A stretch of 64,000 nt of DNA from Nocardioidaceae bacterium (GTDB taxonomy: Bacteria > Actinomycetota > Actinomycetes > Propionibacteriales > Nocardioidaceae). The position numbers and the translations under genes are program-made. The stretch is from the NCBI GenBank assembly GCA_044866695.1, contig JBIOUF010000014.1:30873-94872 (forward strand). The letters are read 5' to 3'. Below are positions 1 through 12,467 of the stretch, piece after piece; position 1 is the stretch's first letter, and every line of letters starts with the position of its first letter. The notes below the pieces were generated by a model. The model saw only the letters and a list, made by a program, of their open reading frames with translations, was not told the DNA's origin and made no database searches.

Positions 1-500
1 TCGATGTCGCCGAGCCGTAGCAGGCAGGTTGGCGGTCGTGTCCACGGCTTCTCGAAGCCGGCCGCGACCTCCTGCAGGAGGTCGAAGCCGGGGTTCATGA
101 ACGAGCGGAGCACCGCCAGGGCGGGCTCGATGCGACCGAGGTCCTCGGCGGAGCCTACGAGTGCGGGGTCTCCGGGCTTGGGTCGTGCGTCGAGGGCGAA
201 CTCCAGCGCGAAGCTGCGCGGCTTCCCGCTTCCGGGCCGCTGGCCCTTGGTGGCGGTGATCAGCGGTCCGAACTCGCTGAGGTCGGCGAAGAAGCCGCCG
301 GCCCCGGCGGCCGCGGCCGCCAGGTGGCTCTGGCCGTCCTTCTGTGAGGCCTTGGTCTTGTCGAACCCCCACTTGCCGAAGTCGAGGTCGTCGTGGTATT
401 CGAAGGACTTCTTCTCCGAGAGCAGCTCGGGGTGGAACTGGAACCGGAAGATCAGTGGGGGCACCGCGAGCACGTTCGCGAGGTAACCCAGTCTCGGCAT
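1..500 (-). CDS. CIS tube-like protein (Afp7/Cis7-like tube initiator), 5' part only; continues beyond window start
   Basis: Minus-strand ORF starting at ATG 500 with GAGGAG about 7 nt upstream. It is absent from the ORF track because it has no stop in the window. My translation is MPRLGYLANVLAVPPLIFRFQFHPELLSEKKSFEYHDDLDFGKW..., and the F-x-F-(N/H)-P-E motif is typical of gp19/CIS-tube-fold proteins. It lies directly after the tape-measure slot. Confidence 0.6.
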   Translation of the reverse strand, partial: MPRLGYLANVLAVPPLIFRFQFHPELLSEKKSFEYHDDLDFGKWGFDKTKASQKDGQSHLAAAAAGAGGFFADLSEFGPLITATKGQRPGSGKPRSFALEFALDARPKPGDPALVGSAEDLGRIEPALAVLRSFMNPGFDLLQEVAAGFEKPWTRPPTCLLRLGDI

Positions 501-511
501 GTCGGTGCTCC

Positions 512-2380
512 TCAGTACGTGGCGAAGTCCCAGATGGGCACGTGCGGCCGGCGCTGGCCGCGAAGGCCACGCCGGTCGTCGAGTCGTTCCACCCGCTCGA
601 TCCGCTCGCGGTCGTCGATGTAGCGGGACAGCAGCGAAGCGGCCGGTGCTGACGTGTCGTTCGGGCCCTGGCTGGTGTCGGAGTGGGCGCCCACCGGCAC
701 GATGTCGACGAGGACCTGGTCGATCTGCACGACCGGTCCAGTGACGGGAGTCCGGCCCCTCGACCCAGACGGACCGGAGTCCGACCGCGACTCGGGCGCG
801 GCGAAGTAGCCCGTCATCGAGTCGAGCAGCTGCTTGAGCCCGCCGGTGGCCAGCCACTGGCCATAGGCCGCCGCGATGGGGTGGAAGGCGGTCTGGCCGC
901 GCAGCCGGTCCCACACGTTCTGGCTCTTGCCCGTCGGCTCCTGCGGCAGCAGGGCGTTGGCCTTCTGGTCCGCCGCGGTGCCGAGCTCCTCGAGCCGCCG
1001 GTCGAGGTTCGTGCCGACGAGCGTCGACTCCGCGACCGCGGCCTTGTCGAGCTTCTTGCCGTAGTCCGTCAGGCCCTGGTGCAGGGCGTTGGTGGGGTCG
1101 TCGACGAGCTGCTTGGCCGCACTGGCGATCTTGTCCGTCGCCGCCTTCGCGTTCTTGGTGAGCTCCTGCACGATCCCCGCCAGCACGGGCGGGTCCGAGA
1201 GCTTGGGGGGAGTCGGGTCCTCCTGCTTCTGCTTCGTGACGGCCTTGCCGGCGGCCTCTGGATGACCGGCGAGGAGCAGCAGTCCCGGCAGGATGTCGAC
1301 CAGCTTGTCCAGCAGCCTGAAGACGTTGCTCTGGCCGAGCTTGCTGAGGATGTCGAAGACCTGCGGGACCAGCCAGTCCAAGAGCTGCTTCACCGTCTTG
1401 GAGACGGCATCCGCCAACGCCTTGCCGAGGTCCAGCGCGCCGTCGAGCAGGTTGACCAGCGCCGCGAAGAGCGCCTTCAGCACGTCGTCGACGACCGTGG
1501 CGATCGTTCGCAGGGCGAGGGTCAGGACGCGCGTCACCATCGCCATCGTCTCCAGCGCAAGGACGGCGATCGCCCGCGTCAGCACCAGCACGTTGCGGAC
1601 CACGAAGCGCAGCGTGTCGACGATGGCGTCGCGGAAGTCCGGAAGCCGGTCGAACAGCCACGACACGCCCGCGACCACCGTGGGGACGGCGACCACCAGC
1701 CCGCCGACCAGCCGCGTCGCCGCGTCGAGCGCCGCGGTGACCGAGTCGACCCAGGCGCGCCATCGTTCGGCGTCCGGCGCGCCCACGGCGGACCCGCCTG
1801 CGCCAGCTGCGACAGGCGGCTGACCGTTGGCCGCCCGAAGCAGGTTGGTCAGGGCGTCGACCTTGCCCCGCAGGCTGTCGAGGAGCTCGACGAACTCCGG
1901 CTGGCCGCCGGCCGCGGCAGGGACGGGCGGCGTTCCCGACGCCGTCGCGGCCTTGGCGGCCCCGGCCGCGACGGCGCCTTGCTCCGCCGTTCCCCTTCCC
2001 AGTCCGAGCTTGTCGATGATGCGCTCGATCCGCGTGGCGATCGAGTCGATCGTGCCCAGCGACTCCGCCAGCGTGATCGAGCCCAAGGTGCCGCCGGCCA
2101 CGCCGCCGAACAGGTTGCCGACGAAGGCGCCGAAGCCGCCGAGCAGGCCCGCGAAGTCGCCCTGCCCGCCGGAGCTGGTGAGGTCTTGGATGTTGACCAC
2201 GTGCACGCGCAGCGCGCCGTTGGTCAGGGGCGGACTGCCGAACGCAGCGCCGGCCGTCGACGCGATCGTCATCGCGAACGACGCGTACCGAGCCGTCGCC
2301 CGCTCGATGTCCTCGAGGGCGCGGCGCGCGAACCGGGTCTGGGTCAGTAGCAGGCCCAGCTGGGTGACCACGTCATCCAC
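512..2380 (-). CDS. eCIS-associated large alpha-helical protein, tape-measure-like (third of three); N-terminal glycine-zipper segment
   Basis: 622-aa ORF with a GTG start 3 nt after the preceding stop and GGGGAGG upstream. It is Ala/Leu/Val-rich and helical-looking, contains GLLGGFGAFVGNLFGGVAGGTLG, and has hydrophobic stretches around residues 230-300. I recognised no enzymatic motif. It sits between the chaperone-like genes and the CIS tube-like gene. Confidence 0.6.
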   Translation of the reverse strand: MDDVVTQLGLLLTQTRFARRALEDIERATARYASFAMTIASTAGAAFGSPPLTNGALRVHVVNIQDLTSSGGQGDFAGLLGGFGAFVGNLFGGVAGGTLGSITLAESLGTIDSIATRIERIIDKLGLGRGTAEQGAVAAGAAKAATASGTPPVPAAAGGQPEFVELLDSLRGKVDALTNLLRAANGQPPVAAGAGGSAVGAPDAERWRAWVDSVTAALDAATRLVGGLVVAVPTVVAGVSWLFDRLPDFRDAIVDTLRFVVRNVLVLTRAIAVLALETMAMVTRVLTLALRTIATVVDDVLKALFAALVNLLDGALDLGKALADAVSKTVKQLLDWLVPQVFDILSKLGQSNVFRLLDKLVDILPGLLLLAGHPEAAGKAVTKQKQEDPTPPKLSDPPVLAGIVQELTKNAKAATDKIASAAKQLVDDPTNALHQGLTDYGKKLDKAAVAESTLVGTNLDRRLEELGTAADQKANALLPQEPTGKSQNVWDRLRGQTAFHPIAAAYGQWLATGGLKQLLDSMTGYFAAPESRSDSGPSGSRGRTPVTGPVVQIDQVLVDIVPVGAHSDTSQGPNDTSAPAASLLSRYIDDRERIERVERLDDRRGLRGQRRPHVPIWDFATY

Positions 2381-2383
2381 GGC

Positions 2384-11349: not shown

Positions 11350-11440
11350 GGGAGTGGTCCTCGACGGTCTCATGGGGAGGGCGCACCGTACGTCGGCGCT
11401 CGTCACGCAGGCGTCACGAGGGCGGGCGGGACTCCTCGCC

Positions 11441-12274
11441 TCACCCATCGCCGGAGATCAGCCGGGCCGGTGGCGGCAGGGACATCAGCTCCCCCAGCCG
11501 CGGTGACGGGTCGACGCCGAACACCCGGCGATGCAGGCGGCGGTAGTCCTCGCACACCCGGCGGGCCGCGGCCACGTCGTCGGCGGCCAGGTACGCGCTC
11601 GCCAGCGCACACTGGGCGCTCTCGCGCAGCGGGTCCGCATCGACCACCAGGCGAGCTGCCCGGATGCCCTCGGCCGGCCGGCCGGCCTCGCCCAAGAGCC
11701 GGCTCAGCAGCTCGAAGGCGTGCAGCATCCGGTGCCGGAGGCGTTCGCGCTCCAAGACGGCCCAGTCGTCGTCCCATCCGGGGGCCATGGCGATCGACTC
11801 GGCGAACCATGGCATCACCGCCAGGTCGCCCGTCGCCACCGAGCCACTGATGAGGCGCTGGGCCCAGTCGGCAGCCACGTGCGCGTCGACCGTGACGTCG
11901 TCGCGCAGCGCGAGCGAGGCGGTGGTGGCCTCGACCAGGTCCAGGCCGCAGCTGCGCAGCCGCCACAAGGCCGAGCGGAGGTTTCCCGATGCCCTGTGGT
12001 CGTCGACGGTGGCCCACAGGACGCCGGCCGCCACGCTGCGGTCGACGCGGGTACGTCGCAGGGCCAGCCAGACGAGCAGCCGTCGGCAGGAGTCGGGGAC
12101 CGCTCGCCGCTCGCCGGCCACGGTGATCGCCACGTCGCCGAACAGGTGGAGCACCGGCCCTTGGACCCCGCTCTCCCACGTCGCCCGGGCACCGGGCAGT
12201 GACCCGTCGGCGCGGAGGAGGCCTTCGGGATGGGACCAGCCGTTCGGTCGCGCGGGTCGGATGTCAGCGGGCAT
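11441..12274 (-). CDS. SARP-family transcriptional regulator, paralogue of the downstream gene
   Basis: 277 aa with the same architecture: VLHLFGDVAITVAGERRAVPDSCRRLLVWLALRR...GNLRSALWRLRS...GWDDDWAVLERERLRH...DADPLRESAQCALASAYLAADD...YRRLHRRVFGVDPSPRL. Confidence 0.8.
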   Translation of the reverse strand: MPADIRPARPNGWSHPEGLLRADGSLPGARATWESGVQGPVLHLFGDVAITVAGERRAVPDSCRRLLVWLALRRTRVDRSVAAGVLWATVDDHRASGNLRSALWRLRSCGLDLVEATTASLALRDDVTVDAHVAADWAQRLISGSVATGDLAVMPWFAESIAMAPGWDDDWAVLERERLRHRMLHAFELLSRLLGEAGRPAEGIRAARLVVDADPLRESAQCALASAYLAADDVAAARRVCEDYRRLHRRVFGVDPSPRLGELMSLPPPARLISGDG

Positions 12275-12467
12275 GCCGCGTCATCCCGTCACGTCCGAAG
12301 GTCAGCAGGAACTCGCGCACAGCCGCCACCGCTTCCTCGACATCCCTGAACTCGCCGGGGGCGGGGCGGACCGATCCGTCGTGGTAGTCCGTGACCACGG
12401 TGAAGCGCAGCCCGCACGACTGCACCTCGACCCGAACCAGGCACACGCCCGACGTCGCGGCATTCAT
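12264..12467 (-). CDS. Small hypothetical protein (67 aa) at the head of the SARP/eCIS gene string
   Basis: The ORF has high third-position GC when translated by hand. Its 3' end overlaps the SARP start by 11 nt, which suggests coupling. I recognise no family. Confidence 0.4.
   Translation of the reverse strand: MNAATSGVCLVRVEVQSCGLRFTVVTDYHDGSVRPAPGEFRDVEEAVAAVREFLLTFGRDGMTRHAR

What the first reader, a model, noticed from the sequence alone, without database searches (positions are those of the whole stretch)
1..12467. Phage-tail-like contractile injection system (eCIS/CIS) operon with its own SARP regulators and no phage head or lysis genes in view
The minus strand carries a cap-like gene, sheath, tube, assembly protein, tape-measure-slot proteins and a CIS-tube-like gene. 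These are tightly packed, with 1-25 nt gaps and good RBSs, and are preceded by two SARP genes.

Nothing on the visible side resembles capsid, portal, terminase, integrase or lysis genes. The right flank is ordinary metabolism plus gene relics.

This is the architecture of actinobacterial CIS loci such as those studied in Streptomyces. However, several parts here deviate from the textbook set; see the separate findings below. The spike, baseplate and ATPase genes must lie beyond the window start.
Basis: partly seen in the sequence, partly recalled or inferred. Interest (0 to 1): 0.6.

Follow-up and report, generated by a model that had tools for sequence, protein, structure and literature searches.

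The report
Headless phage-tail injection machine locus
This actinobacterial chromosome carries a complete, horizontally acquired gene set for a phage-tail-like "molecular syringe" with its own SARP switch genes. It belongs to a widespread but unstudied lineage with three tape-measure-like proteins and no loading ATPase.

Summary
Window 1-12467 (minus strand) encodes a 67-aa ORF, two SARP regulators, a cap, sheath, tube, a gp51/TAC-like assembly protein, a DUF6760 piece, three large helical proteins and the start of a CIS_tube gene.

The contig continues 30.9 kb to the left. There I found LysM, hub, spike, gp25, Baseplate_J, P2_I-like and DUF6519 (fibre-anchor) genes, then convergent WD40 genes and housekeeping genes. 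The locus is complete at about 22.9 kb.

No capsid or portal family is detectable anywhere in the genome. The predicted AAA+ ATPase is absent from the contig and from 78 of the 79 related loci.

The closest solved sheath is the Streptomyces CIS sheath (E 1e-55). R-pyocin and T4 sheaths score about 1e-5.

The locus falls in a supported 49-locus sheath clade spanning seven phyla. Every clade locus long enough to reach that slot keeps the same order, including:
- three paralogous tape-measure-like genes;
- a split hub and spike;
- a cap with an extra CBM-like domain;
- a nucleotide-conserved T_TTT_TTR frameshift site (47 of 49 loci).

The tape-measure paralogue used as the clade marker is absent from 60 genomes of the same genus, family and order, so the locus is an acquired island.

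Verdict: a real CIS, a new variant of a known kind. Whether it acts outside or inside the cell is not settled.

The parts
12264..12467 (-). 67-aa ORF at the head of the regulator genes. Its end overlaps the first SARP start by 11 nt. Function unknown.
   Evidence: GC3 0.85. No Pfam or NCBIfam family. tblastn matches of 54-64% at the same position in the three closest loci L005, L006 and L024.
11441..12274 (-). SARP-family transcriptional activator, 277 aa (upstream paralogue)
   Evidence: Pfam BTAD 3.5e-11. 43% identical to the second SARP. Profile A7 matches the AfsR SARP domain 8hvr over residues 38-269, E 3.2e-13.
10588..11448 (-). SARP-family transcriptional activator, 286 aa (downstream paralogue). 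Its start overlaps the stop of the first by 8 nt.
   Evidence: Pfam BTAD 7.7e-9. AfsR profile match. The tandem pair is kept in L005, L006 and L024.
10480..10587 (-). Promoter region of the structural operon. It holds a direct repeat GGTGAC-N5-GGTGAC (10541-10557, 11-bp period) followed by a -10-like hexamer, with no -35 element.
   Evidence: The exact repeat occurs once in the 64-kb window. The same repeat plus a CATAGT/CACAGT-type -10 stands before the cap gene in L005, L006, L024, L044, L009 and L010. No sigma-70 consensus promoter was found. Binding by the SARPs is inferred, not shown.
9445..10479 (-). Cap / tube-sheath terminator, 344 aa. It has an N-terminal CBM-like beta-sandwich (about 1-169) and a C-terminal Pvc16_N/DUF4255-type cap domain (about 170-330).
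   Evidence: Profile A1 against PDB: 9gts Pvc16_N-domain protein, E 1.6e-8, residues 170-308. AlphaFold2 pLDDT 87.4, pTM 0.81. Foldseek matches CBM11/22/4 folds for the N-domain and the caps 7b5i_AA, 9gts_0A and 9qgn_A for the C-domain.
7317..9422 (-). Contractile sheath, 701 aa
   Evidence: Phage_sheath_1C 1.5e-7. PDB: Streptomyces CIS sheaths 8bky/9gtp 1.2e-55 and 8bl4 2e-54; R-pyocin 3j9q 2.9e-5; T4 gp18 2e-5. 49-66% identical across the 49-locus clade.
6824..7294 (-). Inner tube protein, 156 aa
   Evidence: Phage_T4_gp19 2.6e-17. 53-90% identical in clade loci.
6004..6801 (-). Assembly protein, 265 aa. It is gp51-like (T4_baseplate) with tail-assembly-chaperone similarity and two CxxC zinc ribbons.
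   Evidence: PF12322 5.5e-13, Phage_TAC_7 9.7e-6, Zn-ribbon hits. 55-86% identical in clade loci. Remote relatives in myophages BCD7 and SP-15 are annotated as baseplate hub.
6016..6022 (-). Slippery heptamer T_TTT_TTA in phase (AAT TTT TTA = N-F-L), 12 nt before the stop of the assembly gene. It is a candidate -1 frameshift site into the DUF6760 frame.
   Evidence: It is the only TTTTTTA in the window on either strand (expected 0.01). T_TTT_TTR is present in 47 of 49 clade loci from seven phyla, and in the 21 loci where frames were checked the -1 frame is open across it. Several sister-clade Streptomyces loci encode the same N-F-L with non-slippery AAT TTC TTG. Frameshifting itself is not shown.
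5837..6007 (-). DUF6760 segment, 56 codons, in the -1 frame relative to the assembly gene. It is probably expressed as a C-terminal extension of that protein (gpG/GT-type), or from its GTG start.
   Evidence: PF20546 6.9e-5, 23.3 bits, below the cut-off of 27. GTGA overlap with the upstream stop. 52-83% identical in clade loci.
4089..5813 (-). Tape-measure-like paralogue A, 574 aa, with conserved hydrophobic helices
   Evidence: No Pfam or NCBIfam family. hhalign to paralogue C: probability 95%, E 2e-8. The profile weakly matches tape measures 8v3w, 6v8i and FtbJ 9j1k. Four hydrophobic segments. Present in all 46 clade loci that reach this slot.
2384..4087 (-). Tape-measure-like paralogue B, 567 aa (start at 4087, 1 nt after the stop of A)
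   Evidence: hhalign to paralogue C: probability 99.4%, E 2.7e-21 over 474 columns. Start placed. Hydrophobic segments.
512..2380 (-). Tape-measure-like paralogue C, 622 aa. It is the best candidate for the actual length ruler.
   Evidence: Its length varies least across 36 loci (CV 2.1% against 5.4% and 8.0%). It lies directly before the tube-initiator gene. AlphaFold gives an almost all-helical model with helices of up to 148 residues, at low confidence (pLDDT 57). 45 homologues were found, named 'hypothetical protein' wherever a source names them except one UniRef 'Phage tail tape measure protein'. No homologue in PLSDB plasmids or in the phage collection.
1..500 (-). 5' two-thirds of the CIS_tube (Afp5/Cis5-type tube initiator) gene, 244 aa in full. 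The gene and the rest of the operon continue left of the window on contig C14.

Genes left of the window (contig coordinates):
- LysM 104 aa, C14:30308-30622
- gp27-like hub, about 383-432 aa, C14:29160-30458
- gpV-type spike, about 242 aa, ending at C14:28414
- Pro-rich 81 aa, C14:28172-28417
- gp25, C14:27793-28158
- Baseplate_J, C14:26205-27776
- P2_I-like 1242 aa, C14:22480-26208
- DUF6519 fibre-anchor protein 712 aa, C14:20493-22631
   Evidence: PF19266 7.6e-7, above the cut-off, on the full protein. Phage_base_V, GPW_gp25, Baseplate_J, Tail_P2_I and DUF6519. The LysM profile hits 9gtp_P at 2e-6. The hub profile hits the N-terminal parts of VgrG-type proteins 7aef_q, 9gtr_q and 7b5h_AJ. 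DUF6519 is described as eCIS baseplate-anchor domain eBAP5 of tail fibres in PMC12923769.

Best explanation
This is a complete, chromosomal, horizontally acquired contractile injection system (CIS) of about 22.9 kb (contig C14:20493-43363). It belongs to a distinct, cross-phylum clade of the eCIS/CIS superfamily.

**Proposed working (the parts list is shown; the mechanism is inferred)**
1. The two tandem SARP activators bind the 11-bp-phased GGTGAC repeats that replace a -35 element. This switches on one long operon running from the cap gene to the fibre gene.
2. A baseplate assembles from gp25, Baseplate_J and the P2_I-like protein around a two-piece centre. That centre is a gp27-like hub plus a gpV-like spike with an HxH apex.
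3. The LysM protein and the CIS_tube protein start the tube.
4. The gp51/TAC-like protein and its probable -1 frameshift product carrying DUF6760 chaperone the hydrophobic, all-helical tape-measure proteins into the tube lumen. Paralogue C probably sets the length. The other two ride along as lumen cargo or as partner chains.
5. The sheath polymerises and the Pvc16-type cap closes the end.
6. The DUF6519/eBAP5 protein acts as fibre or anchor.
7. On contraction the spike and tube are driven out, and the membrane-active tape-measure proteins are the material delivered.

No AAA+ loading ATPase and no separate toxin gene are part of the system.
For: **Parts list**
- All structural parts are identified by family, profile or fold.
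- The sheath is far closer to solved CIS sheaths (1e-55 to 1e-19) than to R-pyocin or T4 sheaths (about 1e-5).
- The eCIS marker families CIS_tube, Pvc16-type cap and DUF6519 are present.

**No prophage**
- No head genes flank the locus, and there is no capsid or portal family in the genome.
- No phage record covers 80% or more of the sheath; the best is 37% identity.

**Conserved clade**
- The same gene order is kept in every clade locus long enough to show it. The clade is a supported 49-locus sheath group from Actinomycetota, Chloroflexota, Pseudomonadota, Myxococcota, Acidobacteriota, Planctomycetota and Gemmatimonadota.
- The three large proteins are paralogues. They are helical with conserved hydrophobic helices.
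- The slippery heptamer is conserved at the nucleotide level in G+C-rich genomes.

**Regulation**
- The SARP promoter motif is conserved in six relatives.
- Other lineages carry a different dedicated activator at the same place: a sigma-54 EBP, a LuxR response regulator or a SARP.

**No ATPase**
- An AAA ATPase is absent from the contig and from the relatives, with working positive controls.

**Acquired island**
- The marker protein is absent from 60 genomes of the same genus, family and order.
Against: - There are no expression or particle data.
- No release (lysis) genes and no identified toxin were seen, so extracellular action is unproven.
- Frameshifting, SARP binding and lumen loading of the three paralogues are inferences.
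- The tape-measure assignment rests on position, composition, weak profile hits and a low-confidence model.
- An ATPase encoded elsewhere in the genome cannot be excluded. Twenty AAA genes exist on other contigs, and the assembly has 314 contigs.
- The role of DUF6519 as a fibre anchor comes from a bioinformatic catalogue (PMC12923769), not from an experiment on this clade.
Confidence: 0.72

Rival explanations
1. The machine is the same, but it works inside the producer, like the Streptomyces coelicolor CIS. Particles stay cytoplasmic, dock to the cell's own membrane and fire under stress or during development. This would cause regulated cell death rather than attacking other cells.
For: - The closest solved sheath and cap are those of the cytoplasmic Streptomyces CIS.
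- No holin, endolysin or secretion genes lie in or beside the locus.
- SARP control is typical of developmental and secondary-metabolism programmes in actinobacteria (established knowledge; AfsR match).
- The hydrophobic tape-measure paralogues could permeabilise the producer's membrane.
Against: - The locus ends with a DUF6519/eBAP5 protein, catalogued as a tail-fibre baseplate anchor. Its C-terminal part is replaced in the Lysobacter and Sorangium loci, as receptor-binding parts usually are.
- I did not look for a homologue of the membrane adaptor CisA, so nothing is known here about an anchor.
- The same architecture is kept in diderm and monoderm, non-developmental bacteria.
Confidence: 0.2
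2. It is an R-type tailocin: a domesticated P2/Mu-type phage tail used as a bacteriocin against related bacteria. On this view it is not a member of the eCIS family.
For: - The gene order is Mu/P2-like: sheath, tube, chaperone with frameshift, tape measure, LysM protein, hub, spike, gp25, J, I, fibre.
- Hub and spike are separate proteins, and the spike sequence shows an HxH apex motif (that this motif marks gpV-type spikes is my recollection, not a test made here).
- There is no AAA+ ATPase.
- One published CIS screen deliberately discards loci with fibre and tape measure but no ATPase as 'phage or R-type bacteriocin' (PMC12210884).
Against: - The sheath scores 1e-55 to Streptomyces CIS but only 3e-5 to the R-pyocin sheath.
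- The cap is Pvc16/DUF4255-type, and CIS_tube and DUF6519 are eCIS markers.
- No lysis cassette was seen.
- One conserved architecture spans seven phyla, which is unusual for strain-level bacteriocins.
- There are three tape-measure paralogues instead of one.
Confidence: 0.06
3. It is a decaying tail module of a myovirus prophage whose head and lysis genes have been lost.
For: - All parts have phage-tail ancestry.
- A gene-relic zone lies to the right of the regulators (earlier first-reader note e1-2980832; RlaP fragment).
Against: - Every ORF is intact with strong coding bias.
- The same set of genes, with the same ends, recurs in the clade's loci in seven phyla.
- Host-type dedicated regulators are present.
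- No capsid or portal family is found in the genome.
- The tape-measure paralogue has no homologue among 50,697 phage records.
Confidence: 0.02

Closest known systems
Streptomyces coelicolor / S. venezuelae cytoplasmic CIS (CIS-Sc; PDB 8bky, 8bl4, 9gtp, 9gtr, 9gts; PMC10066040, PMC10020575, PMC12237407) and S. lividans SLP (PMC13277306)
   Same: - Closest solved sheath (E 1e-55) and cap (9gts: E 1.6e-8, 22% identity in the fold match).
- LysM protein, gp25 and Baseplate_J are shared. That CIS-Sc also shares the gp51-like, CIS_tube and P2_I-like parts and the overall gene order is my recollection of the papers, not compared here.
- Chromosomal, headless, actinobacterial, with a pathway-specific regulator.
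   Different: - The solved sheath is 534-539 aa against 701 aa here, and only the C-terminal third aligns strongly.
- CIS-Sc has a fused 643-aa VgrG-type spike (9gtr), a 225-aa cap without the N-terminal beta-sandwich (9gts), and the membrane adaptor CisA (PMC12237407). That it also has one tape measure and an AAA+ ATPase is my recollection of the literature, not a test made here.
- Here the hub and spike are split, there are three tape-measure paralogues, a DUF6519 fibre-anchor gene is present and there is no ATPase.
- A second locus, with a short 526-aa sheath like the solved Streptomyces ones, lies elsewhere in this genome on contig C193.
Streptomyces davawensis CIS with the tape-measure-related effector Tme (PMC11126660)
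   Same: - It is described as a CIS group spread across distant phyla, including Proteobacteria, Chloroflexota and Actinobacteria.
- Its cargo is a hydrophobic remote homologue of tape measures loaded in the particle. This is a precedent for tape-measure-like proteins acting as the delivered payload.
   Different: - Tme is one 2247-aa protein with DUF4157 and an EndA-type nuclease domain. No DUF4157 or nuclease domain occurs here.
- The paper says one related cluster lies on a plasmid (its sheath table names Mycobacterium sp. JS623 plasmid pMYCSM01). No plasmid in PLSDB has a sheath more than 34% identical or any homologue of paralogue C.
- One such plasmid locus, Paracoccus pTAV3 (a genus that also appears in the paper's sheath table), carries Pvc16 and an AAA ATPase in mid-operon.
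- I therefore infer a different clade, but I could not read the S. davawensis record itself.
Afp / PVC / MAC class I eCIS (dbeCIS; PMC6899500)
   Same: It shares seven of the eight core subunit types: tube/Afp5, sheath, LysM Afp7, spike Afp8, gp25 Afp9, Baseplate_J Afp11 and cap Afp16. It is headless and carries a fibre.
   Different: - There is no Afp15-type ATPase and no downstream toxin genes with N-terminal loading signals.
- The gene order is phage-like, with the tape measure between the tube and the baseplate genes.
- Sheath similarity is only 1e-20 to 1e-30.
R-type pyocins and P2/Mu-type contractile tails
   Same: - The gene order is the same.
- A chaperone gene has a -1 frameshift site just before its stop.
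- The hub and spike are separate proteins.
- There is no ATPase.
   Different: - The sheath is only marginally similar (3e-5).
- The cap is Pvc16-type.
- There are three tape-measure paralogues.
- There is no lysis cassette and no head genes.
- It has dedicated activators rather than an SOS-type switch (the SOS point is inferred).

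Membership tests
eCIS superfamily (core set of Chen et al. 2019, PMC6899500) | Tube proteins Afp1/5 (gp19-type tube plus CIS_tube) | tested here: met
   PF06841 2.6e-17. PF19266 29.5 bits, above the cut-off.
eCIS superfamily (core set of Chen et al. 2019, PMC6899500) | Contractile sheath Afp2/3/4 related to CIS sheaths | tested here: met
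   8bky/9gtp 1.2e-55, Pvc2 2.5e-28, Afp3 3.5e-22; against pyocin 2.9e-5.
eCIS superfamily (core set of Chen et al. 2019, PMC6899500) | Afp7 LysM protein, Afp8 VgrG-type spike, Afp9 gp25, Afp11 Baseplate_J | tested here: met
   LysM profile to 9gtp_P 2e-6. Hub profile to VgrG N-domains 2.4e-6. Phage_base_V, GPW_gp25 and Baseplate_J. Afp7 and Afp8 are each split into two genes here.
eCIS superfamily (core set of Chen et al. 2019, PMC6899500) | Afp16 / Pvc16-type cap | tested here: met
   Not detected by Pfam on the single sequence. Detected by profile (9gts 1.6e-8) and by fold (7b5i, 9gts, 9qgn).
eCIS superfamily (core set of Chen et al. 2019, PMC6899500) | Afp15 AAA+ ATPase in the locus | tested here: not met
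   No PF00004 match on contig C14. No AAA domain in 78 of 79 related loci within 10 kb either side of the sheath, nor in eight downstream extensions. The method detects the ATPases of L080 and Paracoccus pTAV3.
Studied Streptomyces CIS class (CIS-Sc / SLP) | Same sheath clade and accessory set as CIS-Sc (short sheath, fused VgrG, CisA; single tape measure and Cis15 ATPase as I recall them) | tested here: not met
   The window's sheath sits in a different supported clade from the genome's own short-sheath (526-aa) locus on C193. Here there are three tape-measure paralogues, a split hub and spike and no ATPase. A CisA homologue was not searched for.
R-type tailocin | Phage-tail module with fibre and tape measure, no head, no ATPase | tested here: met
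R-type tailocin | Lysis cassette (holin and endolysin) for release, and a sheath of P2/pyocin type | tested here: not met
   No lysis-type family appears among the locus genes or the genes next to it. The pyocin sheath scores only 2.9e-5. Small ORFs were not searched exhaustively for holins.
Myovirus prophage | Capsid, portal and terminase genes contiguous with the tail module | tested here: not met
   The left flank holds WD40 genes, a beta-lactamase-fold gene, RibD_C and MDMPI. The right flank holds an RlaP fragment and a sugar ABC transporter. PF05065 and PF04860 are absent genome-wide. Terminase families were not searched.
SARP regulators | OmpR-type winged-helix DNA-binding domain followed by BTAD | tested here: met
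   BTAD in both. Profile A7 aligns to AfsR residues 44-285, covering both domains, E 3.2e-13. The homologues in L039 and L040 show Trans_reg_C plus BTAD.
SARP regulators | Binding to direct repeats with 11-bp period next to the -10 element of the target promoter | not testable with these tools
   The sequence motif is present and conserved. Binding needs EMSA or footprinting.

The most novel reading that the evidence does not exclude
In this clade the tape measure has been triplicated. The three paralogues would together form both the length ruler, possibly as a heterotrimer, and the delivered payload. They would be loaded by a frameshifting chaperone as in phages. This 'self-cargo' design would make both the AAA+ loading ATPase and separate toxin genes unnecessary, and would explain why one architecture works in monoderm and diderm hosts of seven phyla.
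Probability: 0.3. Interest if true: 0.75.

Novelty: new variant of a known kind. Interest (0 to 1): 0.55.

Why it matters
Contractile injection systems are being developed as programmable protein-delivery devices. Their natural roles are known for only a few lineages.

This locus represents a lineage found in soil and freshwater bacteria of at least seven phyla. Wherever a source names the marker protein and its homologues they are 'hypothetical protein', with one UniRef exception. At least one published screen would discard such loci because they lack the ATPase (PMC12210884).

The lineage combines eCIS hallmarks with phage-style assembly logic:
- eCIS hallmarks: the sheath type, the Pvc16-type cap, CIS_tube and a fibre anchor.
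- Phage-style logic: a frameshifting chaperone, tape measures in the lumen and a split hub and spike.

It therefore bears on two open questions: how cargo is loaded without an ATPase, and whether tape-measure proteins are the ancestral CIS effectors, as proposed for Tme and Sle1.

Cultured members exist, so the ideas are testable. Examples are Kribbella sp. CA-253562, Streptomyces humi, S. xylophagus, Nitrospirillum iridis DSM 22198, Corallococcus coralloides and Sphingomonas faeni.

Tried and rejected
- **Single-sequence family searches.** Pfam and NCBIfam gave nothing for the cap, the three large proteins, the LysM protein and the hub. Profiles built from related loci were needed.
- **AAA search in related genomes.** PF00004 in ten related genomes returned a truncated list that could not serve as a control. 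I replaced it with a tblastn screen with positive controls.
- **Wrong label for a sister clade.** I first took the sister clade with about 790-aa sheaths (L055-L074) for the CIS-Sc class. The solved Streptomyces sheaths are 534-539 aa and the genome's own short-sheath (526-aa) locus is on C193, so I dropped that label. One member of that sister clade (L073) also shows no ATPase within 30 kb.
- **Link to S. davawensis.** I tried to decide whether the S. davawensis group is this clade. Its record is not in the collections I could reach, so the answer rests on indirect evidence.
- **Island boundaries.** No direct repeats were found between the two edges. The only tRNA call (tRNA-Thr in L003) lies inside a coding ORF and is probably false.
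- **SARPs against PDB.** Single-sequence searches gave nothing.
- **Model of paralogue C.** The AlphaFold model is too uncertain for a fold search (pLDDT 57).
- **Consensus scans.** No sigma-70 promoter or intrinsic terminator was found at the operon ends.

Full report
**1. What is in the window**

The window is G000:C14:30873-94872 of a 3.98-Mb, 314-contig, 96.8%-complete genome with about 70% G+C.

By third-position G+C (0.85-0.94) and by family searches, the minus strand of 1-12467 reads, from upstream to downstream:
- a 67-aa ORF (12264-12467);
- two SARP genes (11441-12274 and 10588-11448), with BTAD hits;
- a 108-nt promoter gap;
- a 344-aa protein (9445-10479);
- sheath (7317-9422);
- tube (6824-7294);
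- a 265-aa gp51/TAC-like protein (6004-6801);
- a 56-codon DUF6760 frame (5837-6007);
- three large ORFs of 574, 567 and 622 aa (4089-5813, 2384-4087, 512-2380);
- a CIS_tube gene cut by the window start.

Gaps between genes are 1-23 nt and GGAG-type ribosome-binding sites are visible.

**2. What lies beyond the window start**

The contig runs 30.9 kb further left. The operon continues there with:
- a LysM protein (104 aa);
- a gp27-like hub (about 383-432 aa);
- a gpV-type spike with OB fold (Phage_base_V) and an HxH apex motif;
- a Pro-rich 81-aa ORF (GC3 0.95);
- gp25;
- Baseplate_J;
- a 1242-aa P2_I-like protein with a Reg_prop repeat;
- a 712-aa DUF6519 protein.

DUF6519 has been catalogued as eBAP5, a baseplate-anchor domain of eCIS tail fibres (PMC12923769).

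The operon ends at C14:20493. It is followed by two convergent WD40 genes, a beta-lactamase-fold gene, and RibD_C and MDMPI genes. To the right of the regulators lie an RlaP fragment and a sugar ABC transporter.

Spike and baseplate are present and no head genes are contiguous. In addition, Phage_capsid and Phage_portal are undetectable in the whole genome.

**3. The ATPase prediction fails**

No PF00004 match lies on contig C14.

I ran a tblastn screen with six AAA domains from this genome. It found none in 78 of the 79 related loci (10 kb either side of the sheath) and none in eight 17-20-kb downstream extensions. The same screen detects the annotated AAA ATPase of the Paracoccus pTAV3 CIS and that of locus L080.

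The sigma-54 activators seen upstream in some relatives do contain AAA+ domains. They carry HTH_8 and are regulators.

**4. The cap**

The 344-aa protein has no family hit on its own. A profile of 24 orthologues matches the S. coelicolor CIS cap protein (9gts, E 1.6e-8) over its C-terminal half.

The AlphaFold model is confident (pLDDT 87.4). Foldseek returns two sets of matches:
- carbohydrate-binding-module-type beta-sandwiches for residues about 1-169;
- the caps of the Anabaena, Streptomyces and Photorhabdus systems for the rest.

**5. The tape-measure slot**

The three large proteins are paralogues. C against B gives hhalign probability 99.4% (E 2.7e-21 over 474 columns). C against A gives 95% (E 2e-8). 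A against B is not detectable directly.

All three carry conserved hydrophobic helices. The profile of A weakly matches solved tape measures. C is modelled as nearly all helix, with helices of up to 148 residues, at low confidence.

Across 36 loci the length of C varies least (CV 2.1%, against 5.4% for A and 8.0% for B). C also sits next to the tube-initiator gene, so C is the likeliest ruler.

Wherever a source names the homologues they are 'hypothetical protein', except one UniRef 'Phage tail tape measure protein'. None exist in PLSDB plasmids or in 50,697 phage records.

**6. Chaperone and recoding**

The assembly gene ends ...AAT TTT TTA GCG CCG GAG TGA. T_TTT_TTA is in phase for -1 slippage into the DUF6760 frame.
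- It is the only TTTTTTA in 64 kb (expected 0.01).
- T_TTT_TTR is kept in 47 of 49 clade loci from seven phyla, and the -1 frame is open across it in all 21 loci where I checked frames.
- Several sister-clade Streptomyces loci encode the same N-F-L with AAT TTC TTG.

This points to a gpG/GT-type programmed frameshift. It is not shown experimentally.

**7. Regulation**

A profile of the SARPs and their orthologues aligns with the AfsR SARP domain across the DNA-binding and BTAD parts (E 3.2e-13).

Before the cap gene stands GGTGAC-N5-GGTGAC followed by a -10-like hexamer. There is no -35 element. The same arrangement is found in six actinobacterial relatives.

In other phyla the same position holds another dedicated activator:
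- a SARP in an Allosphingosinicella and a Planctomycetota locus;
- a sigma-54 enhancer-binding protein in Lysobacter and Pyrinomonadaceae loci;
- a LuxR response regulator in Pyxidicoccus.

**8. Relatives and classification**

A scan of one genome per species with the sheath returned 79 loci. Synteny by tblastn and a sheath tree define a supported clade of 49 rows.

All 46 members long enough to show it have the order: cap, sheath, tube, TAC, DUF6760, A, B, C, CIS_tube, LysM, hub, spike. In the eight members whose downstream flank I fetched this is followed by Baseplate_J, P2_I-like and DUF6519. gp25 lay beyond the fetched stretch in most loci.

The 20 actinobacterial rows form one supported subclade. 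The other phyla are intermixed.

Sister clades have a single slot of about 1.6-2.7 kb instead of three genes.

The closest solved sheaths are those of the Streptomyces CIS (1e-55). After them come an archaeal CIS, PVC, Afp, the Anabaena and Algoriphagus systems. R-pyocin and T4 sheaths are marginal. Phage records reach at most 37% identity over half of the sheath.

The locus thus belongs to the CIS superfamily. It fails the ATPase criterion of the eCIS core set (PMC6899500) and would be discarded by a screen that treats ATPase-less loci as tailocins (PMC12210884).

The S. davawensis group (PMC11126660) is described as cross-phylum too. Its effector Tme (2247 aa, DUF4157 plus nuclease) has no counterpart here, and plasmid-borne relatives differ. 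I infer that it is a different clade but could not test that directly.

**9. Origin**

Paralogue C has no match in 60 genomes of the same genus, family and order, so the locus is an acquired island.

Convergent WD40 genes accompany it in four of the other actinobacterial members examined. No integrase, att-like repeats or reliable tRNA mark the edges.

**10. Limits**

The site of action, the role of the three paralogues, the frameshift and SARP binding are all inferences. Each has a stated test in the next-steps field.

Noticed in passing
genome contig C193:1217-14256 and contig C178 (outside the window): The same genome has a second contractile injection locus. It has a 526-aa sheath (short, like the solved Streptomyces ones), two tube genes, a gp51-like gene, a roughly 1000-aa tape-measure-size ORF, a divergently transcribed Pvc16_N gene and a large LuxR-type regulator. 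A third sheath plus Pvc16_N fragment sits on a 2.4-kb contig. No PF00004 ATPase is seen on C193 either.
   Followed up: partly
L003:4506-6527 (+) and L003:7089-9446 (+), i.e. C14:15378-17399 and 17961-20318: Two WD40 beta-propeller genes lie convergent to the end of the operon. One has an unassigned 450-aa N-terminal part. Homologous WD40 genes (about 38-40% identity over the full length in the two closest) sit at the same place in four of the other actinobacterial loci examined, but not in the proteobacterial, myxobacterial or planctomycete ones.
   Followed up: partly
L003:17300-17545 (-), i.e. C14:28172-28417: An 81-aa ORF with GC3 0.95 lies between the spike and gp25. It is made of a 5-residue proline-rich repeat (..LPDLP GVALP DLPTI..) and has no family hit. 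tblastn matches of 60-77% stand at the same place in the closest relatives, and the ORF is absent from the Streptomyces members. It may be a spike-tip or plug protein.
   Followed up: partly
window 9970-10479 (-): The cap carries an N-terminal beta-sandwich that resembles carbohydrate-binding modules (CBM11/22/4) and CIA30. It is conserved throughout the clade. A sugar-binding domain at the end of the particle far from the baseplate is unexplained.
   Followed up: partly
L073, L093, L094 (Streptomyces sp. BH104, sister clade): A sister-clade locus with a roughly 790-aa sheath and a single tape-measure slot also shows no AAA domain within 30 kb. ATPase loss may therefore be older than the three-paralogue clade.
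   Followed up: partly
L003:4327-4403 (-): ARAGORN calls a tRNA-Thr (CGT) inside the 5' part of the long beta-lactamase-fold ORF. The sequence is very G+C-rich and lies in a coding frame, so the call is probably false. Alternatively the ORF start is further downstream.
   Followed up: no
L042 and L043 (two Sphingomonas loci): These are the only two clade members without the T_TTT_TTR heptamer (CAT TTC CTG and CAC TTT CTA). They would be natural controls for whether the frameshift product is needed.
   Followed up: no
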